This document shows, piece after piece, positions 4,393 to 60,912 of a DNA stretch of 64,000 nt. The notes beneath the pieces were generated by a model. That model was not told where the DNA came from. It saw nothing but the letters and a program-made list of their open reading frames with translations, and made no database searches. The position numbers and the translations under genes were made by a program. The first letter of the stretch is position 1. Each line of letters starts with the position of its first letter. Origin of the DNA: Octopus vulgaris (lineage: Eukaryota); the NCBI GenBank assembly GCA_951406725.2, contig OX597831.1, positions 80,166,001-80,230,000 of the forward strand. Reading direction: 5' to 3'.

Positions 4393-4454
<62 letters not shown>

Positions 4455-4621
4455 AAATTCGAAATGCGATAAAATAAAATTAATTATTATCGCTGGTGTT
4501 TCTAGCACAGGCCATATATTATTCATATATAAGTACATTAAAAGGCGAAGTATGTACTAGAAACACAGAAGCTTGATAAATTTAGTGAAATGAAAATAAA
4601 AACTTTTACTAACTCGGTTCT

Positions 4622-4694
4622 TCTTAGACAGCAGTTTCGCCTATTTCAGCAATAAAAATAATATTTATTTACTCAGGTAGGCTCTTCAGTAAGA
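4622..4694 (-). ncRNA. Type I hammerhead ribozyme (array copy 1)
   Basis: Minus strand TCTTA-CTGAAGA-GCCTA...TAGGC-GAAAC-TGCT-GTC^TAAGA. Confidence 0.85.
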
Positions 4695-5022
4695 TTCCTG
4701 TTATTCTAAAATCGCATCACGATAGACACATGTGCGTCTACTAATTTGCTCTTTCTAACTAATCAGATCACTGCGCAGACGCAGAACGTACTCGACAAAC
4801 TAGGGATTTCTGGTATATAGTCTAACGCTCAAAATTTATCGAGAAATATGTAAACAAATTCAAAATGCGATAAAATAAAATTAATTATTATCGCTGGTGT
4901 TTCTAGCACAGGCCATATATTATTCATATATAAGTACATTAAAAGGCGAAGTATGTACTAGAAACACAGAAGCTTGATAAATTTAGTGAAATGAAAATAA
5001 AAACTTTTACTAACTCGGTTCT

Positions 5023-5094
5023 TCTTAGACTGCAGTTTCGCCTATTTCAGCAATAAAATAATATTTATTTACTCAGGTAGGCTCTTCAGTAAGA
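5023..5094 (-). ncRNA. Type I hammerhead ribozyme (array copy 2)
   Basis: Minus strand TCTTA-CTGAAGA-GCCTA...TAGGC-GAAAC-TGCA-GTC^TAAGA; palindromic stem III ACTGCAGT. Confidence 0.9.
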
Positions 5095-5422
5095 TTCCTG
5101 TTATTCTAAAATCGCATCACGATAGACACATGTGCGTCTACTAATTTGCTCTTTCTAACTAATCAGATCACTGCGCAGACGCAGAACGTACTCGACAAAC
5201 TAGGGATTTCTGTATATAGTCTAACGCTCAAAATTTATCGAGAAATATGTAAACAAATTCAAAATGCGATAAAATAAAATTAATTATTATCGCTGATGTT
5301 TCTAGCACAGGCCATATATTATTCATATATAAGTACATTAAAAGGCGAAGTGTGTACTAGAAACACAGAAGCTTGATAAATTTAGTGAAATGAAAATAAA
5401 AACTTTTACTAACTCAGTTCTT

Positions 5423-5481
<59 letters not shown>

Positions 5482-9019: not shown

Positions 9020-9558
9020 TACATTTAAACACATTAAGAGTTTTCCATCATAGGAATCCCTTACGCTAGAAAGAAAAGCTTTAAATGTACACTGTATTTT
9101 ATATGAAAAATATATAGTCACTTGAGTAATTTTTCTATACGCTAGGCCACTTGTAGTAAAAATTTCTAAAATCTTTATTACTCTGATATTATTAATTATG
9201 TATAATGATTTCTGGAAGATTCGTTCGAAAAAATTGCCGACATCTTTAGCTGTCGACAAAAAGAACTGCGCTTGCCCGGTGGATTTGAAAAAATTAAAAT
9301 GCAAGAGGCACATGGTGGATTGGTCTCGTGTTTATATGTTTTATCTTGGCGTACCTGTTGAAGAAGACGTCGCCTAGCAAATTATTTAATTTGCTAAAAT
9401 AAGTCAGAAACCATGGTCCAGGAAATAGATGGTAAATGTTATTTTTCATTCCCTTCAAGAATTTATCCCTAATTAATGGTTTTGGATTTTAGCTGTTCTT
9501 TCTAGCGTAAGAGATTCCTATGATGGAAACCTCTTAATATGTTTAAATGTACACTGTA
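9020..9558 (+). mobile_element. Hammerhead-containing element with ~60-bp inverted terminal duplication
   Basis: 9020-9080 is the reverse complement of 9491-9551; hammerhead motif at 9354-9422. Confidence 0.7.
9354..9422 (+). ncRNA. Type I hammerhead motif (C3U variant)
   Basis: CCTG-TTGAAGA-AGAC..TAGCAAATT/AATTTGCTA..GTCA-GAAA-CCATGG-TC^CAGG. Confidence 0.7.
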
Positions 9559-9561
9559 TTA

Positions 9562-15988: not shown

Positions 15989-15991
<3 letters not shown>

Positions 15992-16335
15992 CGTCAAGTA
16001 TACTAGCTATCTCAATATGGCTAACCACTAAGGGTGGGTGTTACTGTAGCTTTTAGCCCCAGGAGATCATCGTCTCCAGCTGGCTTTAGGCACACTTTCT
16101 GTCTTATGGTATTTGCAAAGGGAGGTCATCCCTCTCTCGTTAACCTAAGTGTTACGCACGGACTGCAGTTTCTAGGTATTTGCCTGTCTTTGGCGTACGG
16201 CAATCACCGGTTTTCGATGAAGGGAGACCTGTTTGCAAATACTTATTTATTGTTTTTCCCAGCAAGCAATAATAAATCTCTGAACAAGATGTAAACAGTA
16301 ACTGCTCGACAACGTAAATTATACTAGCCATCTCT
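15989..16335 (-). mobile_element. ~320-bp monomer with terminal redundancy and a degenerate hammerhead (16155-16199)
   Basis: AACGT.AA.TATACTAGC.ATCTC occurs at both ends; homologous to the 17.2-17.6 kb and 56.0-56.2 kb hairpins. Confidence 0.65.
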
Positions 16336-16559
16336 GAACGAAGCGTTAGTCGAGTACAGAGCGGTAATAAGGAAAGTGATGAGAAAGGAATAACCTATGA
16401 GTCCAACACAACCTATAGCTGAAACGGCTGTAAGGTAATGACGTTCATAATATATTTGTTTATTCCTCTGTTATCTATTTTCTTATATATAGTTGTATAT
16501 ACATATACACATACATATAGTGCATTCTCTATTTCGAATAAACATGCTTATAATATATA

Positions 16560-17105
16560 TTGGGTTGTCCGGAAAGTTCGTGCCGATATTTAAAGGAAAG
16601 AAGAAGGTCAATAAATACTTGCCTTACATTTTCAATCAACCAAATATGAACCATTTTGTTGCACAATGCGTCTCCATCTTTCCTTTCACTTGCAAACGCC
16701 GTCTTCCCAGAATTGAGGTGGTTTCATGTCAAAAAATTCATCAAGGTATCTTTTTACAACATCCAAGGAATTGAAATTTTTACCATTCAGACTATTCTGC
16801 AGAGACCTGAATAAGTGGAAGGAGCAATATCTGGTGAATATTGATGGTGGGGTAACACATCTCAGCCGAGCTGCAGCAATTTTTGTCTGGTTCCCAAAGC
16901 ATCAAGTGCCGAAAATGAACTTTCGTATCTTCCATTTTAAAGGATTACTTAATTAACATAGGTTATAGGAACATAAATCTTCTTCCACGATAAGATAGCT
17001 TAAACTGTGCTCTAAATGGAGGTGTAGTCAAATCCTATTTTATGGACTCAACCACGTTCTACAATATAGGTCGAAAGGTAAACACGAACTTTCCGGGCAA
17101 CCCAA
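16560..17105 (-). mobile_element. Internally deleted mariner transposon
   Basis: TIRs TTGGGTTGTCCGGAAAGTTCGTG / CACGAACTTTCCGGGCAACCCAA with TA flanks; remnant VLPHHQYSPDIAP..FHLFRSLQNSLNGKNFNSL...WRRIVQQNGSY. Confidence 0.92.
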
Positions 17106-17145
17106 TATATATATATATATATACATACATATATATATATGTATA

Positions 17146-17178
<33 letters not shown>

Positions 17179-17182
<4 letters not shown>

Positions 17183-17604
17183 CATAAGGGACATCAGCCA
17201 TCTGAATGTGGCTAGGGACAGGGGCAGGGCGGTGGGGGTGTTACTGATGCATTTAGCCCCAGGCGATCATCAACGTCACCAGGAGGGCTGACACCATCAC
17301 GGTGTCCTCTAGCCTGCAAAGGGAGATCATTCCCCGAAGAAGCGGATGCCACATACGGACCTAGGTTTCAAGGTATTTAGGTCCGTATGTGGCATCCGCT
17401 TCTTCAGGGAATGATCTCCCTTTGCAGGCTAGAGGACACCATGATGGTGTCAGCCCTCCTGGTGACGTTGATGTTCGCCTGGGGCTAAATGCAACAGTAA
17501 CACCCCCACCGCCCCTGCCCTGTCCCTAGCCACATTCAGATGGCTGATGTCCCTTATGTTATGGAGCAGTTACTGTTTATATCTCGTTTAGAGAATTATT
17601 ATTG

Positions 17605-17605
<1 letters not shown>
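17179..17605. mobile_element. Fold-back palindrome (185-bp arms, 14-nt loop) of the 16-kb hammerhead family
   Basis: 17179-17363 vs 17378-17562 with about 5 differences; unpaired tail to 17605; (TA)n flanks. Confidence 0.9.
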
Positions 17606-17672
<67 letters not shown>

Positions 17673-17673
17673 G

Positions 17674-17733
<60 letters not shown>

Positions 17734-21414: not shown

Positions 21415-21746
21415 ATAGCAATTTAATAAATAAAACATATGCATACATACATACATATATGTACATACCTACATCTATATGTACATATACATGCATATAT
21501 GGGTACAGGACACCACAAATAAACGTAGAACACAACGTGTTTCACGCAATGAACCGAAACAGGGGCAGCTGAAGAAGGGGAATGTTCCTCGTGTTGTTTG
21601 TCTTGTACTCTGTTTTTTCGTTATTAAAAAAAGTCCGTTTCCTTGTTTTGTTTTTATGTTTTCGTTTCTCGTTGTGTTCTACGTTTATTTGTGCTGTCCT
21701 ATACCCATATATGCATGTATATATACATATAGATGTAGCTATGTAC

Positions 21747-21779
<33 letters not shown>

Positions 21780-23499: not shown

Positions 23500-23560
<61 letters not shown>

Positions 23561-23562
<2 letters not shown>

Positions 23563-23791
23563 CGGAGTAAACACATAAATGTGAAACAAGGTGGAAAAAA
23601 GAGTACTCAAACACCAGTCGTAGAGTAATATGCTTTATTTAAAGCAGCAGAAAATTCAACAAAAGCTGTTACTCTGAGTTTCACGTTGCCGTTCGTCGGA
23701 CAGTTTTAGCAAAAACTGTCCGACGAACGGCAACGTGAAACTCAGAGTAACAGCTTTTGTTGAATCTTCTGCTGCTTTAAATAAAGCATAT
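23561..23791. mobile_element. Fold-back pLTR-like element with two inverted hammerheads (23666-23703 minus, 23716-23753 plus)
   Basis: 80-bp arms 23628-23707 / 23712-23791 with 1 mismatch; CTGT-CCGACGA-ACG-GCAA-CGT-GAAA-CTCAGAG-TA^ACAG. Confidence 0.85.
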
Positions 23792-26815: not shown

Positions 26816-27073
26816 TGCTGAAAATTGCGTCATTGATATGAACCAGGGATATGTCAATCCGTAACGTCACCAAACACCAAAGACACAAAAGGAAGCATGA
26901 CATGCACACACATACACACACACACATACACACTCACACACACGCACTTACACACTATGATGTTGTTTATGAAACATAATCTTTGTCTATCTATTTATCC
27001 TCTTTGTGATTTTGGATAATAAGAAAACTATAGAAATGAATCCTTTGAATTTAACTAAATTTTATATTTCTTT

Positions 27074-27158
27074 GCTGCTGAAGATTGCTCTACATTTTAA
27101 ATTGATGTAATATTTGCATTGTTAAATTAAATGGAGTCGCATGAAACGATCGTACTGC
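27074..27158 (+). ncRNA. Type I hammerhead motif (family G, copy 1)
   Basis: GCTG-CTGAAGA-TTGC...GCAT-GAAAC-GATC-GTA^CTGC. Confidence 0.7.
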
Positions 27159-27193
27159 ACTACCTCTGGATATCCTTGTTGCTTATTTTGATT

Positions 27194-27231
<38 letters not shown>

Positions 27232-29006: not shown

Positions 29007-29092
29007 GTGGCTGAAGATTGCTCGACATTTTAAAACTGATGTAATGCTTACAATGTTTAATAAAATGAAGTAGCATGAAACGATCGTACCAC
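29007..29092 (+). ncRNA. Type I hammerhead motif (family G, copy 2)
   Basis: GTGG-CTGAAGA-TTGC...GCAT-GAAAC-GATC-GTA^CCAC. Confidence 0.75.
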
Positions 29093-29237
29093 ATTACTTC
29101 GGATATACTTGTTGCTTATTTTGATTGTAATCACCCTATGGATTTATATGGATAATACTATACAAAATTCTGATGCCTTTGACTTAAGTACCATATTCAT
29201 CTGAATCTAAATTTTGCTGAACTTATTTATATACATA

Positions 29238-29396: not shown

Positions 29397-29737
29397 GTGT
29401 GTGTATATATACATATATATCAAATATTCAGGAGTGAACATTTATATAGATACTATTATTGTTGTTATTATCTGCGGTAATAATAACAATAACAATAATG
29501 TAAGTGGTTGCAGGCCTAAAATAGCGTTAGACTGCTATAGAATAAAAATGTATATCAATAATAAGGGCACACAAAGGCACCAAACTGCTAGAAAGAGGAG
29601 TTAAATCTCTCATTTTTTTTCTGTGTATTTTTCAGTGTTATTATTGCTGATTTAAGTGTGGGTTTTAATTCCTCCTTCTAGCAGATAGGCGCCTTTCTGT
29701 GCTCTTATGATATATATATATATATATATATATATAA

Positions 29738-35033: not shown

Positions 35034-35923
35034 GTAAATGCAAATTACGATGAATGTAAACAAACAAACGAAGTTGGCTTTAGAAGCGTTGAGATGTCTT
35101 AGAAAGTTAAAGAAGTGATTTTTAAATTCTCAAACGCAGGATAATGCTAATAATATAACCTGAACAGGATTAGCTACCCTTATTTTGCAGAAAAAGGTGT
35201 TGGCAGCCGGCTATGAGACTCGAACTCACACTTCCGTGTCTACGCGTCGCGGTGCTCTGAACCATTAAGCTAAACATCCCACACCACAAATTCTTCCGCA
35301 AAGGCAAATTTGTTGTTGAAAATGGACCTAAATTTGAAAAACTTGTAATTGTTTGAAATAAATTCATTTACATATATACCAAACTAGTTTCAACAATATT
35401 TTTTGTTTATCAATTCTAAAAATTTAGAATTATGAATTAGAAAAACATGCTTAAAAGTTTCAATGTTGACAAGTTTAAATGTTCTTAACAGTCAATAACA
35501 TAAAAGCTGTACATCAACTGGTTTAAATGTACAAAGTTCATTAGTGTTAGGAGTGACAGACAAGAAATAAATATCGTCAAATGTTCAGTTATACTGAGTT
35601 AAGATGGAGGAAAACATAATTATATACATATATATATATATATATATAATTATAATTACAATTCTCCTTTTTGGTGAAACATTGCAAACTGCTGTTTATA
35701 TTAATTTTAAATATATATCTATATATAGTCGCCATGATAGATCGCTAGCTACTACACACATTTTTTTCTCTTGTTTCTCTCCTTGTTTTTTTCTGTGTAT
35801 CTTTCTGTAGAAGAGCGTAGGCACGAAACGTAAAATACTTTTTCTATTCCTGAGCGTTATACTAATACATCTGTTTGTTTTCTACACCACCTGTCTTCGT
35901 CTTTCGAGAGACCAACAAAATTC

Positions 35924-36533
35924 TTTGGTGTTACAAGGAATTTTGTTGGTCTTTCGCTCAACTGCGCCCCACACATAATAATCAAGGGGGTTGCAGTCTG
36001 GTGAGTTTGACGGCCAGATGTGAGGAGTGATGTGATCGAAGAAATTATCTGACAGCTATGACTGGGTTCTCCTGCTAGTTTGGCATGGTGCAGAGTCCTG
36101 TTACCAGTCATAGGGTCTTCCACTCTCTTGACCCAGGGCAGCACTTGACGTAAGCCACCGTGTTGAGTGTGAGGCCATGTGGAAAAATGAATGGCGGCAT
36201 AGTGTTGCCATCACTACTGATCACTCCTAACACCATGATGTTGACTGGATGTTTGATTTTTATCACTCTCGGTACATGTCCTCAGATTGCAACTGTCCTG
36301 AGATTGACACCCAAACATTCTGGAATTTTCGTATTGGAGCTTCCGGCTCAAATGCCAAGCAGTGCAGCCTGTCACTTCCATATTCCTGGTAGAGCGTATT
36401 ACATCATGGTGCTATTTTTCTCACAGACAGTGCTCAATTGACCCTACTATACTGTGTAGTCGACAAAAATCAAAAACATACAATGCGCGAAATTGAAAAT
36501 ATAAAATGGCGACAATTTACCATCGCACCCTGT
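35924..36533 (-). mobile_element. DD37D (maT-type) Tc1/mariner remnant
   Basis: KHPVNIMVLGVISSDGNTMPPFIFPHG...QDSAPC-(37 residues)-PDCNPLDYYVWGAVE; 5' end TA-CAGGGTGCG at 36533. Confidence 0.88.
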
Positions 36534-36810: not shown

Positions 36811-36892
36811 CATTACGGCCGTTTCTAACGTCTCCTTTAATTGATTAATGAAAACATTACATCTTTTGTAAAGAAACCGTTTGCGTCAGATG
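36811..36892 (-). ncRNA. Degenerate type I hammerhead motif
   Basis: CAT-CTGACGC-AAACG...CGTTA-GAAA-CGGCCG-TA^ATG; A9 mutated. Confidence 0.55.
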
Positions 36893-37024: not shown

Positions 37025-38180
37025 TTGGTCAGAACAGAGAAATTAAGGGACTAGTAGAGTTTTTAGGAGTGGGGGGGGGAGAATAATTGACTCCAGTGAC
37101 CCGGATATCTGTACTTCTAACAAGAAATGAGGACATGCCTCCAATAGTCTAAATTTGTTTATTAAGATGGTGTTTAATGGTCAATGGTAAAGTAAAGAAT
37201 TATGGTCAAGTCAACCTACTAAATAATCAAGGTCGTATGTGATGGAACCAATACACAGGCTTTATCTCTGCAAATGGGCAGAGCAAGGGGTAGTAATAAA
37301 AATACAAGGGATGGTAAAGGGATGATAAAGAGAAAGAAGAAGGAACGAAAAGTGACCCAACCGTTATTAATTACCGCATTAGTAGATGAAGACTTTGGAA
37401 GATAATAGAATAAGGGTTATAGGGCCAAGCGCTAAACTAGGAGTGGGAATCATTGCTTGATAAAATAGGGCTTGCCCATATAACCCTTATTGTATTATCA
37501 TTCAAAGTCTTCCTCTACTAATACGGTAATTAATAACGGTTGGGTCACTTTTCGCTCTTTCTTCATTCTCTTTATCGTCCCTCCACCATCCCTCACTTCT
37601 TTATTACTACCCCCTGCCCGGCCCGTTTGCAGAGATAAAGCCTGTGTATTGATTCTATCACATACGGACCTTGATAATTTAGTAGGTTGAACTGACCACA
37701 ATCCATTTTCTTACCATTAACCAGTAAACATTGAACAACTTCTTAATAAATAAACCCAGACTACTAGAGCCACGCCCTCCTTTCTTATTAAGTATAGATA
37801 TCAGAGTTTGTTAAGGTTATTTCTATAGATATCCTATAGAAATATATATCATATACACTCATTACCCAATTTTGTCTTCGACTTCATTGCTTTACATCTG
37901 ACGTCACGGATACGAAACTTTGTAGCAAAAATCAGTGCAGGCTATTATTTCTATGGAATATCTGCAGAAATAACCTTAACAAAATAATGCAAGATGCACT
38001 GCTAACGCAGTAGAACTTGGTACTGACTTATAAAAATAAATGCTTTATAATATAGTATGCTTGCATAACAAAGTACCACACACCTACACATCATTAATGT
38101 ATACCTGATTCACTGGAGTCGATTATTCCTTCCCCCTCATAAAAACTCTACTAACCCCTAAATTTCTCTTTGTCTGAGTA
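37025..38180. repeat. Old interrupted inverted repeat
   Basis: 37104-37406 vs 37492-37802 and 37025-37100 vs 38105-38180; visibly diverged. Confidence 0.8.
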
Positions 38181-38210: not shown

Positions 38211-38374
38211 TTGCAAAAAGCAGTAATAGAATATTATAGAATAGAGACAGAAATCCCATCTGAAGAAATATTTGTACAAAGAACGAGTATCTCTATACTC
38301 GTTCTTTGTACAAATATTTCTTCAGATGGGATTTCTGTCTCTATTCTATAATATTCTATTACTGCTTTTTGCAA
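38211..38374. repeat. Perfect palindrome, 80-bp arms, 4-nt loop
   Basis: 38211-38290 is the exact reverse complement of 38295-38374. Confidence 0.95.
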
Positions 38375-45186: not shown

Positions 45187-45357
45187 ATTTTGCAACATGT
45201 AAATACTGAACAGTATATATAAAGGATAAAATCTTTTTAAGAGCAGAGAAATTTGTTGGCAACCACATGGCTGGTTGCCGACAACTTTTTCTGCTCTTAA
45301 AAGGATTTTATTTTTTTTCATATATATATACTGTACAGTATTTAAGTGTTGCAAAAT
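45187..45357. repeat. Imperfect hairpin / MITE-like palindrome
   Basis: ATTTTGCAACA...TTGTTGGCAACCA / TGGTTGCCGACAA...TGTTGCAAAAT. Confidence 0.75.
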
Positions 45358-52240: not shown

Positions 52241-52626
52241 CTATAATAATAAAAGCAAAATCCTGTCTGTGCGTCCATCTCGGTCTCCTGTATCTCAATC
52301 TTAATTTCCTCTATATAGACATATTATACTTTTTTAGAATCAGGATGATCCTGGGATTGAAACTCTGTCCTTTATTTGGTTCTTGAACATTCAGCATTGG
52401 GATCAGGTCTGGATAAGTATTTGGTATAAGTTTACAGTTGAAAATTCAAATTTTAAAAGAACTTCAGAAATTTGTGTACTTCGAAGTTTTTCATATAAAC
52501 TGAACTGGGTACCAATGAATGCTTTATTATTATTGCTATCTACCTACTTACCCTCTTTGGCATGTTGGTAAATGGAATAACTATAAAAATGAATCTTTTC
52601 AATTTAACTAAATTCTATATTTATAC

Positions 52627-52712
52627 GCAGCTGAAGATTGCTCTACATTTCAAAACCGATGTAATACTTGCATTGTTTAATTAAATGGAGCTGCAAGGAA
52701 CGATCGTACTGC
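52627..52712 (+). ncRNA. Type I hammerhead motif (family G, copy 3; A13G, probably inactive)
   Basis: GCAG-CTGAAGA-TTGC...GCAA-GGAAC-GATC-GTA^CTGC. Confidence 0.65.
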
Positions 52713-53390
52713 ATTACCTTTGAATATCCTTGTTGCTTATTTTGATTATAGTATATAAAATATATATATATACGACGGGCTTCTTTCAGTTTCCGTCTAC
52801 CAAATCCGTTCACAAGCCTTTAGTCAACTGTACTGTAGAATTATAATAAATATATAGCAGATAAATTTTAACTACTACATCTTATATGGTCCCTAAAGGG
52901 CCATATGGATCCCGGTTGAGAAGGACTACTTTAGAGGATGATTAAAATGAGTTCTTGCTGCTATTTCTAGCAGGTCGAGGGACCCTACTGTCATTGTTGT
53001 TGGTAGTTTTCGTTGTTGCTAATGTGTTTGTTGTTGTTTCGACGTCGGTCAGCTCGTGGCTGAGCATATTCATCACCTATCAAAGGCGTTCCAGTCGTGA
53101 CCATTACGTCTACTTCACGGGCATTACGCTTCTAGTATTACATGATCTTTACTCATCTTTAGCTGAAAACTATTTCAGGAACCTTTGACTGTTTATTCTT
53201 GCACTGTTAATTCTTCCTTCTCCCACTACTCCCCTACTCTCTCACTCTCTCTCACCCTCTATCTCTCGCTTTGTTTATTTTTCTATTTGTTATGTATTAC
53301 GTCACTATACATCCCGTCGTCGGATCTGAATGCTGTCTTCTATTTGATCTAAACAAATAATCACGGATAACCGGACACAGACGTACAGCT

Positions 53391-56043: not shown

Positions 56044-56160
56044 TAAGGGACATTAGCCAATTGAATATGGCTAGGGACAGGGCAGACTAGCCATATTCAA
56101 TTGGCTAATGTCCCTTATATTATGGAGCAGTCACTGTCTATATCTCATTTAGAGAATTAT

Positions 56161-56165
<5 letters not shown>
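56044..56165. mobile_element. Short fold-back copy of the 17.2 kb family (31-bp perfect arms)
   Basis: 56044-56074 / 56087-56117, plus the same ATGGAGCAG...AGAGAATTATTATT tail. Confidence 0.85.
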
Positions 56166-56438: not shown

Positions 56439-56503
<65 letters not shown>

Positions 56504-56505
56504 TA

Positions 56506-56650
56506 CAAAACTGTCCGACGAACGGGAACGTGAAACTCCGGGTAACAGCTTTTGTTATATTTCTGCTGCTTTTAAATAAAGCATATTACTCTATCTCTGG
56601 TATTTGAGTACTCTTTTTTTCACTTTGTTTCACCTTTATGTGCTTACGCC

Positions 56651-56652
<2 letters not shown>
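56506..56652 (+). mobile_element. Single copy of the 23.6 kb pLTR-like family with hammerhead at 56511-56548
   Basis: CTGT-CCGACGA-ACG-GGAA-CGT-GAAA-CTCCGGG-TA^ACAG. Confidence 0.8.
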
Positions 56653-60514: not shown

Positions 60515-60546
<32 letters not shown>

Positions 60547-60817
60547 CATTAATTAATAAATCTTAGGCTACCCTAAGATTTATTTATTAATGATAAAAAT
60601 GTTTTTGGCTAATTTTGAAAGAAAATCGGCACTTTTTGTATTTGCTGCCGAAAAAACCGCGTGTGCGGATTTTGAAAAGTTATAACATATATAAACATTA
60701 GGCATGTTTTTTATCGCTTAGTCTTTATATGTTAATCTTGGTTTGTAGTTTAACTACTCTTTCTAGCGTGTCAGATGTCCTGTTATGGCCACCTTTTATG
60801 TATTTAAATGTACACTG

Positions 60818-60912
<95 letters not shown>

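What the first reader, a model, noticed from the sequence alone, without database searches (positions are those of the whole stretch)
17179..17605. 185-bp fold-back hairpin whose turn lies inside the ribozyme
The loop region reads CCTT-GAAAC-CTAG-GTC^CGTATG on the minus strand, a hammerhead 3' half whose stem III palindrome is ACCTAGGT versus ACTGCAGT at 16 kb (sequence changed, symmetry kept). The right arm starts 6 nt before the cleavage site. The sibling at 56044 differs at 4 positions, and both of its arms carry all 4, so arms are copied from one template at each insertion. This suggests snap-back synthesis near the cleaved RNA end. If transcribed it forms long dsRNA, a potential ADAR or siRNA substrate.
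Basis: partly seen in the sequence, partly recalled or inferred. Interest (0 to 1): 0.7.

Follow-up and report, generated by a model that had tools for sequence, protein, structure and literature searches.

The report
Head-to-head retrozyme stub with Penelope tail
This 185-base-pair DNA hairpin is real but ordinary: two shortened copies of an abundant hammerhead-ribozyme repeat sit head to head in a TA microsatellite, in the layout already published for Penelope-like jumping genes that likely pasted it in, and the turn inside the ribozyme is not a family rule, because both arms run past the predicted cut site and a sister copy turns about 140 bases away.

Summary
The hairpin is real. The arms are 17179-17363 and 17378-17562, with 4 substitutions and 2 one-base indels, around a 14-nt loop. 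A 43-nt extension (17563-17605) lies on the right only, and both ends sit in (TA)n. Contigs from other samples supply the missing 5' half of the ribozyme: a canonical type I hammerhead with the published U3-A8 core.

The turn lies in loop II. Both arms run past the predicted cut (to -6 and -20), so the template was likely uncleaved or re-ligated, not a cleaved end. The sibling at 56044 turns at +132/+143, outside the ribozyme.

An inverted 5'-truncated copy head to head, a one-sided tail and a (TA)n target make up the published Penelope-like (PLE) insertion unit. Self-priming, the palindromic stem III and siRNA from such inversions are also in print. Best reading: a truncated copy of a protein-free hammerhead repeat (likely a non-LTR retrozyme), likely inserted in trans by a PLE enzyme priming at two fixed sites. 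This scan found the same pattern many times on other DNA.

One small lead: the loop belongs to the tail-less arm in 3 of 3 short hairpins here. The junction could not be checked in reads.

The parts
17097..17178 (.). left (TA)n target tract
17179..17363 (-). left arm: inverted, 5'-truncated, tail-less copy; ribozyme sense on the minus strand; outer end is the family's inner end (+179 from the cut)
   Evidence: inner end seen as 24 contigs going on into (TA)n behind 17562 in run X2 (table 7)
17364..17377 (-). 14-nt loop: natural continuation of the left arm (hammerhead positions -7 to -20: part of loop II, stem II 3' strand, GAAAC)
   Evidence: loose ends show the same letters continuing into the 5' half in runs X2, X5, X12 and X16
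17352..17373 (-). hammerhead 3' half CCTT-GAAAC-CTAG-GTC^CGTATG; predicted cut after 17358; the 5' half is missing from this copy
17378..17562 (+). right arm: direct 5'-truncated copy starting at -6; predicted cut site 17383/17384
17563..17605 (+). 43-nt one-sided tail ending at the outer end (+222)
   Evidence: the same tail at 56125 and 16283
17606..17730 (.). right (TA)n target tract
56044..56163 (+). same-family sibling hairpin: identical 31-bp arms, 12-nt loop (11 natural letters of the tail-less arm plus one extra A), tail on the right, turn at +132/+143
15990..16334 (-). related partial tandem, 321-bp unit, decayed complete hammerhead (cut near 16161), ends at the inner site in (TA)n; longest stop-free frame 60 codons

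Best explanation
The hairpin is two 5'-truncated copies of an abundant hammerhead-bearing repeat joined head to head in a (TA)n tract, likely written in a single insertion by a Penelope-like (PLE) reverse transcriptase/endonuclease acting in trans on an uncleaved or re-ligated RNA of a protein-free, retrozyme-type family. Shown: the layout, the two fixed outer ends 43 nt apart, read-through of the cut site, and a turn position that differs between copies. Inferred: the enzyme cuts both strands of the TA tract. One cut end primes at the inner site (+179) and the other at the outer site (+222). Both cDNAs stop early (-20 and -6), and their 3' ends are joined by a template jump or by end-joining with about 1 nt of microhomology. 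On this reading the turn inside the ribozyme is an ordinary 5'-truncation point. This copy lacks the ribozyme's 5' half and is predicted not to cut itself.
For: Published PLE unit: an inverted 5'-truncated copy next to the 5' end, a 30-40-bp tail at one end and a (TA)n target (PMC8557442, passages; PMC3846280, passages and Discussion). Two RT start sites separated by the tail, cleavage and extension of both strands, and uncleaved RNA as the main substrate in vitro (PMC11167929, parts 1-2 of 4). Here: a 43-nt tail on one side in 2 of 2 same-family hairpins. The inner end joins (TA)n in 24 contigs of run X2, and the 16-kb relative ends there too. Turns relative to the cut: -6/-20, +132/+143, and in two other families -38/-42 and +73/-339. 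The family hammerhead is of canonical build (helix I 6 bp, helix II 4 bp, palindromic loop 3), as described for non-LTR retrozymes rather than PLE minimal hammerheads (PMC4209133; PMC7229834). Retrozymes as non-autonomous PLE derivatives: bioRxiv 10.64898/2026.07.22.740005. The snap-back stem at this junction is unfavourable, +5.4 kcal/mol.
Against: No RT/GIY-YIG partner was found or linked to the family. Tandem monomers of this exact family were not seen; only a roughly 70-80%-identical relative shows a 321-bp unit. Arm plus tail is 50% GC, above the <45% quoted for retrozymes. Two of the 4 hammerhead-bearing fold-backs examined turn in or at the edge of a ribozyme (chance about 0.10-0.21), so some bias is not excluded. 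Loop ownership by the tail-less arm (3 of 3 short hairpins) fits published self-priming plus endonuclease trimming equally well. Two priming events are inferred from end geometry only.
Confidence: 0.65

Rival explanations
1. Self-priming (snap-back) of one antisense strand, RNA or first-strand cDNA, makes a hairpin duplex. The endonuclease then trims its open end unevenly, leaving the 43-nt tail, and the unfolded strand is inserted. The family is the same as in the best reading; only the copying step differs.
For: Proposed in print for head-to-head PLE palindromes (PMC3846280 Discussion); the tail as a product of endonuclease resolution (PMC8557442). It predicts that the loop belongs to one fixed arm: the tail-less arm in 3 of 3 short hairpins (17 kb 14 nt, 56 kb 11 nt, 23.7 kb 4 nt, the last inferred). 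The arms share minority alleles. The 23.7-kb junction has a marginal stem, -0.4 kcal/mol.
Against: No stable primer stem at 17 kb (+5.4 kcal/mol), and no microhomology but one extra A at 56 kb. The 9-kb insertion (a 61-nt inverted piece joined to a whole 480-nt direct piece) fits two primings more simply. In vitro the tail lies between two RT start sites.
Confidence: 0.17
2. The folded or dimerised hammerhead, not its cleaved end, stalls the reverse transcriptase, so turns are enriched within the ribozyme. This is a softened form of the first reader's idea.
For: This turn is in loop II, next to the dimer-forming palindrome. The 23.7-kb turn and its solo sibling's 5' end both fall at -42, the 5' edge of that ribozyme's extended stem I.
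Against: The same-family sibling turns at +132/+143 and the 9-kb copy at +73/-339. One of 2 copies falling in a 50-nt footprint has a chance of 0.26-0.39. Run X2's contig depth is flat across the cut (16,976, 16,947, 16,674), though X3 and X5 decline steadily there and contig depth is a poor measure.
Confidence: 0.1
3. The two arms are stubs of the pseudo-LTR of an autonomous, protein-coding PLE rather than of a protein-free retrozyme.
For: The tail lies in a 22-codon frame from an ATG at 17540, like the 22 aa of pLTR plus tail in Pen2a. One contig in X12 runs 1,235 letters beyond a near-identical tail (record 7), but it carries another family's upstream letters.
Against: The ribozyme is of canonical rather than minimal build. 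The related 16-kb copy returns to a hammerhead about 106 nt after the tail with no long frame. The tail-peptide profile found 0 hits among 1.84 billion proteins (only 22 positions, weak). Read by eye, the loose-end consensuses behind the tail reach a stop within about 8 codons.
Confidence: 0.12
4. The palindrome is an assembly or fold-back-read artefact.
For: No run held more than 0.48 of the words, so the junction was not seen in any independent data.
Against: The flanks are not mirrored (best local score 19). The arms differ at 6 places, two of them CpG transitions, and the right-arm letter at 17441 is absent from essentially all family depth in 4 of 4 runs, as expected for mutation after insertion. 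The asymmetry matches a family end seen in another sample.
Confidence: 0.03

Closest known systems
Insertion unit of endonuclease-bearing Penelope-like elements (A. vaga Pen2a, PMC3846280; Fig. 2 scheme and text of PMC8557442; PAc, PMC11167929)
   Same: Head-to-head inverted 5'-truncated copy, one-sided tail (31 bp in Pen2a, 30-40 bp in general, 43 bp here), a small offset between the arms at the junction (15 bp in Pen2a, 14 here), TA/AT-rich target, hammerhead in the repeat.
   Different: No ORF. Both copies are truncated within one repeat, so the whole insertion is a 427-bp hairpin. The ribozyme is of canonical, not minimal, build.
Metazoan non-LTR retrozymes (PMC7229834; bioRxiv 10.64898/2026.07.22.740005)
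   Same: Canonical type I hammerhead with a palindromic helix III, no coding capacity, a related unit of 321 bp, very abundant in the four organisms whose runs hold it.
   Different: This copy is an inverted, truncated pair, not a tandem. It has a U3-A8 core and 50% GC. The word 'tail' does not occur in the bioRxiv main text (0 hits); 'inverted' does not occur in PMC7229834 (0 hits). Circular RNA was not tested.
U3-A8 hammerhead variant of Schistosoma Cercyon PLEs (PMC4209133)
   Same: The same compensated core pair and a palindromic 15.2-16.2/loop 3.
   Different: There it is in minimal hammerheads; here helix II is 4 bp with a 6-nt loop, and one variant has U3.G8 with a G-C closing pair (X17).
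L1 twin priming (recalled; only search listings seen)
   Same: Two primings from the two cut strands give a 5' inversion.
   Different: In L1 the inverted piece is the upstream part of the RNA. Here both arms copy the same stretch, giving a palindrome.

Membership tests
PLE-type insertion unit | Inverted 5'-truncated copy adjacent at the 5' end, head to head | tested here: met
PLE-type insertion unit | 30-40-bp tail at one end only | tested here: met
   43 nt, in 2 of 2 same-family hairpins; inner end in 24 X2 contigs
PLE-type insertion unit | AT-rich/(TA)n target | tested here: met
   both flanks are (TA)n; the sibling's left flank is another repeat
PLE-type insertion unit | Target-site duplication | tested here: inconclusive
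   cannot be read inside (TA)n
Autonomous PLE | ORF with RT and GIY-YIG endonuclease | tested here: not met
   longest stop-free frame 49 codons in arm plus tail; 0 Pfam families for 7 of 7 frames given; 0 hits for the tail-peptide profile
Type I hammerhead ribozyme (family level) | Helix I, core 3-9 with a 3-8 pair, helix II, GAAA, helix III, NUH in order | tested here: met
   loose ends in X2, X5, X12, X16 and X17 give the 5' half; CATACG pairs CGTATG; U3-A8
Type I hammerhead ribozyme (this copy) | Complete core on one strand | tested here: not met
   the 5' half is absent; no Rfam hammerhead hit
Type I hammerhead ribozyme (family level) | Self-cleavage | not testable with these tools
   needs an in vitro assay, monomer versus dimer
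Non-LTR retrozyme | Canonical type I hammerhead | tested here: met
Non-LTR retrozyme | 150-450-bp tandem units without an ORF | tested here: inconclusive
   only the 16-kb relative shows a 321-bp partial tandem; no tandem of this family lies in the window
Non-LTR retrozyme | GC below 45% | tested here: inconclusive
   arm plus tail 50.4% but the unit is incomplete; relative's unit 43.8%
Non-LTR retrozyme | Expressed as a small circular RNA | not testable with these tools
   only contigs of guessed RNA runs were available

The most novel reading that the evidence does not exclude
Both cut strands are primed on ONE RNA at the two start sites 43 nt apart. The outer-site polymerase trails the inner-site one, cannot pass it, and switches onto the leader's cDNA end when the leader stalls, for example in the folded hammerhead. 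That would fix the loop on the tail-less arm and keep it to about a polymerase footprint (14, 11 and 4 nt in the three short hairpins here). It would explain PLE head-to-head inversions without an antisense template, and thousands of genomic hairpins would then map where the PLE polymerase pauses on its RNA.
Probability: 0.2. Interest if true: 0.55.

Novelty: new member of a known kind. Interest (0 to 1): 0.2.

Why it matters
Little in itself: it is one decayed insertion of a published type, and this scan has reported the same layout many times. The value is indirect. How PLEs make their inverted ends is named as an open question in PMC8557442, and short hairpins like this record both start sites and both stop points. 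A genome-wide tally of loop ownership, loop size and turn position would separate twin priming from self-priming and show whether the ribozyme fold pauses the polymerase. If such hairpins lie in transcribed introns of a heavily RNA-editing animal, they would be ADAR or Dicer substrates; that role is already known for Penelope inversions in flies and is not shown here.

Tried and rejected
No whole genome is held, so hairpin centres could not be mapped genome-wide. Two pattern scans of metagenome contigs found 0 loci. The sequence look-up in earlier findings found 0 look-alikes, and 'near' found 0.

Junction in reads: 20 of 24 listed runs hold part of the stretch, none more than 0.48 of 42 words; no RNA holder was listed on record. 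In one search, 17379-17410 had no cover in 3 of 4 runs and depth 5 or less in X3 (contigs that fit two places). No joints were listed in either lay. This is inconclusive: the samples differ and the contigs are short and fragmented.

RNA and editing: three guessed-RNA runs hold family contigs (9, 28 and 77 laid), some bridging the cut site, but RNA is a guess and DNA may be in them. A>G places number 1, 6 and 4 against 4 in X2, and the four A>G rows shown all occur in X2 too (4 rows were not shown), so there is no evidence either way.

Two templates: the right arm's letter at 17267 is a common allele (47% of X2 depth), but the mirrored row is not listed, so this is unresolved.

Rfam: no hammerhead hit at the gathering score or at E up to 10. 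Folds of single ribozymes were not significant (z -0.3 to -1.7 and +0.6 for 7 stretches). A CTAG sits at both same-family turns, but the arm holds seven 4-nt palindromes and the pattern was noticed after the fact, so it is not claimed. The tail-peptide searches were empty. A search for 'twin priming' plus 'Penelope', 'inversion' and 'retrotransposon' listed 3 papers, none on PLE hairpins by title or abstract (listings only). A search for octopus, Penelope, genome and hammerhead and passages of PMC13282606 ('ribozyme' 0, 'retrozyme' 0) showed no description of this family. Supplements of PMC8557442 and PMC7229834 were not opened and may hold cephalopod families.

Full report
Observation. The arms are 17179-17363 and 17378-17562, 185 bp each, with four substitutions and two one-base indels, around a 14-nt loop. 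As RNA it folds at -394.8 kcal/mol, and 0 of 100 shuffles come close. The minus strand reads AATA-CCTT-GAAAC-CTAG-GTC^CGTATG, and the right arm starts 6 nt before the predicted cut. Both arms have the ribozyme sense pointing outwards, so they are head to head. The same tail occurs at 56125 and 16283 (3 matches, 0.00 expected). The flanks are not mirrored, which argues against a fold-back read artefact. The window is animal DNA rich in microsatellites, likely an octopus; that rests on my recall of its repeats and on unchecked scan notes, and was not tested.

The family and its ribozyme. No genome is held, so I laid public contigs on the two arms. The family is abundant in runs of several organisms (257 to 1,230 contigs per large run). 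Loose ends give the sequence that normally precedes the loop. Read on the sense strand, the ribozyme is CATACG, a core TTGATAA, helix II TAGG-CAAATA-CCTT, GAAAC-CTAG-GTC, then CGTATG (X2 and X5; X2, X12 and X16). X17 shows a variant with TTGACGA and GAGG/CCTC. This is a type I hammerhead of the canonical build described in PMC4209133 (passages): helix I 6 bp, helix II 4 bp, and a short helix III with a palindromic loop that allows dimers. It carries the U3-A8 core reported in the same paper. The palindrome that keeps its symmetry while changing sequence is therefore a published feature. The copy in the window lacks the 5' half and is predicted to be inactive; Rfam finds no hammerhead.

Where the turn lies. 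The loop is natural sequence of the left arm, so the left arm ends at -20 (-21 with a shared T), in loop II, and the right arm at -6. Both run through the cut site without a scar. A cleaved RNA ends at +1, so the template was likely uncleaved, circular or re-ligated; an exact jump onto a second cleaved molecule cannot be excluded. In vitro, uncleaved RNA is the main PLE substrate (PMC11167929, parts 1-2 of 4). The sibling at 56044 has the same tail and nearly the same outer end but turns at +132/+143. Two hammerhead-bearing fold-backs of other families turn at -38/-42 (23.7 kb) and +73/-339 (9 kb). So 1 of 2 same-family copies, and 2 of 4 examined, turn in or at the edge of a ribozyme; chance for a 50-nt footprint is 0.26-0.39 and 0.10-0.21. 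In contrast, a 401-bp tandem at 4452-5426 starts exactly at its cut site and has no fold-back. Other local inverted repeats in the window showed no recognisable ribozyme and were not scored.

One template? The arms share letters that are the minority in the family: at 17283, A makes 50,010 of 69,039 X2 depth while both arms have G; at 17312, T makes 18,729 of 26,239 (mirrored rows). The right arm's letter at 17441 is missing from essentially all depth in 4 of 4 runs, as expected for a later CpG change. One source is thus likely. But at least 2 of the sibling's 4 differences are common alleles (34 and 43 X2 contigs), so shared letters show one subfamily, not one molecule. The difference at 17267 may be a family polymorphism, but this is unresolved.

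Two fixed outer ends. The left arm stops at +179. In run X2, 24 contigs go on into (TA)n at exactly that place (table 7), and the 16-kb relative ends there too. The right arm and the sibling's right arm stop at about +222. This is the PLE tail. PMC8557442 (passages) describes an inverted 5'-truncated copy at the 5' end, a 30-40-bp tail on one side and (TA)n targets as typical. PMC3846280 (passages and Discussion) describes Pen2a with a 31-bp tail and a 15-bp offset, and proposes self-priming for head-to-head palindromes. PMC11167929 shows that the tail is the stretch between two RT start sites and that both target strands are cut and extended. siRNAs matching Penelope inversions are reported in PMC3681739 (passages).

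Retrozyme or pLTR stub. The canonical ribozyme and the ORF-less 321-bp unit of the 16-kb relative point to a non-LTR retrozyme (PMC7229834, passages), a class that a 2026 preprint derives from PLE terminal repeats (10.64898/2026.07.22.740005, part 1 of 5 and passages). I began with 'pLTR stub'. Earlier scan notes on 353-363-nt U3-A8 retrozyme families in this genome moved me, and I could test that only in part: no tandem of this exact family lies in the window, the GC is 50%, and I could not show that it is one of those families (one search found no look-alike). A 22-codon frame over the tail gave no protein hit.

Mechanism. Shown: the layout, two outer ends, read-through of the cut and a variable turn. 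Inferred: a PLE enzyme cuts the TA tract on both strands, primes at the inner and outer sites, and the two short cDNAs are joined at their 3' ends. A plain snap-back of a sense-templated cDNA does not give this product. The tailed strand does not contain the 14-nt loop, and the loop-owning strand does not contain the tail. The only stem available at the junction is unfavourable (+5.4 kcal/mol). Self-priming followed by uneven endonuclease trimming does give it and stays a rival. In all 3 short hairpins the loop (14, 11 and 4 nt; the last inferred from the extended stem I) belongs to the tail-less arm; in the 9-kb insertion the longer piece is the one with the outer end. A trailing polymerase that switches onto the leader's cDNA would explain the three, and is the most novel reading left open.

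Not shown. The junction was not seen in any run (other samples, short contigs). Transcription, editing and small RNAs of this locus are untested. My script found no convincing host exon near the hairpin (a crude scan).

Verdict. A real, decayed insertion of a published type, found many times by this scan on other DNA. New member of a known kind; interest 0.2.

Noticed in passing
window 4452-5426, minus strand: A 401-bp tandem, 2.4 units at 98.8% identity, with two type I hammerheads with intact cores (cuts near 5028 and 4627; the second has a changed stem III palindrome), between (TA)n tracts. Its 5' end lies at the ribozyme cut site (within the TA ambiguity), as if copied from a cleaved RNA. 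It has no fold-back. A young non-LTR retrozyme candidate.
   Followed up: partly
window 23555-23791 and 56503-56651: A second hammerhead family (core CCGACGA): an 80-bp hairpin with a 4-nt loop and a tail of about 70 bp on the left, and a solo copy. Both start 42 nt before the cut.
   Followed up: partly
window 9020-9560: A 61-nt inverted piece joined to a 480-nt direct piece with a long-stem-II hammerhead (core TTGAAGA, cut 9418). The direct piece begins in a second copy of its own end, as twin priming on a tandem RNA would give. A related end lies at 60742-60821.
   Followed up: partly
window 37104-37802, 38211-38374, 45187-45357, 21458-21749, 60543-60596, 35905-35956, 29561-29708: Further local fold-backs (80-98% arm identity) without a recognised ribozyme; with the others, about one per 6 kb.
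   Followed up: no
window 27000-27197, 29010-29129, 52553-52750, 36811-36863; also 21969 and 56253: More hammerhead-like motifs with palindromic stem III; most lie at or near (TA)n tracts.
   Followed up: no
window 16335-16520: A stretch pointing away from the 16-kb copy, with GAAAC-GGCT-GTA on the plus strand and ending in (TA)n; possibly a decayed copy of another family joined head to head.
   Followed up: no
run X12, record 7: A 1,290-letter contig carries the 41-nt tail (3 differences) near one end with another family's upstream letters; a possible longer partner element that shares the tail.
   Followed up: no
window 16560-17105: About 540 bp with terminal inverted repeats, read by eye as a mariner-type remnant (label recalled), directly left of the hairpin's TA tract.
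   Followed up: no
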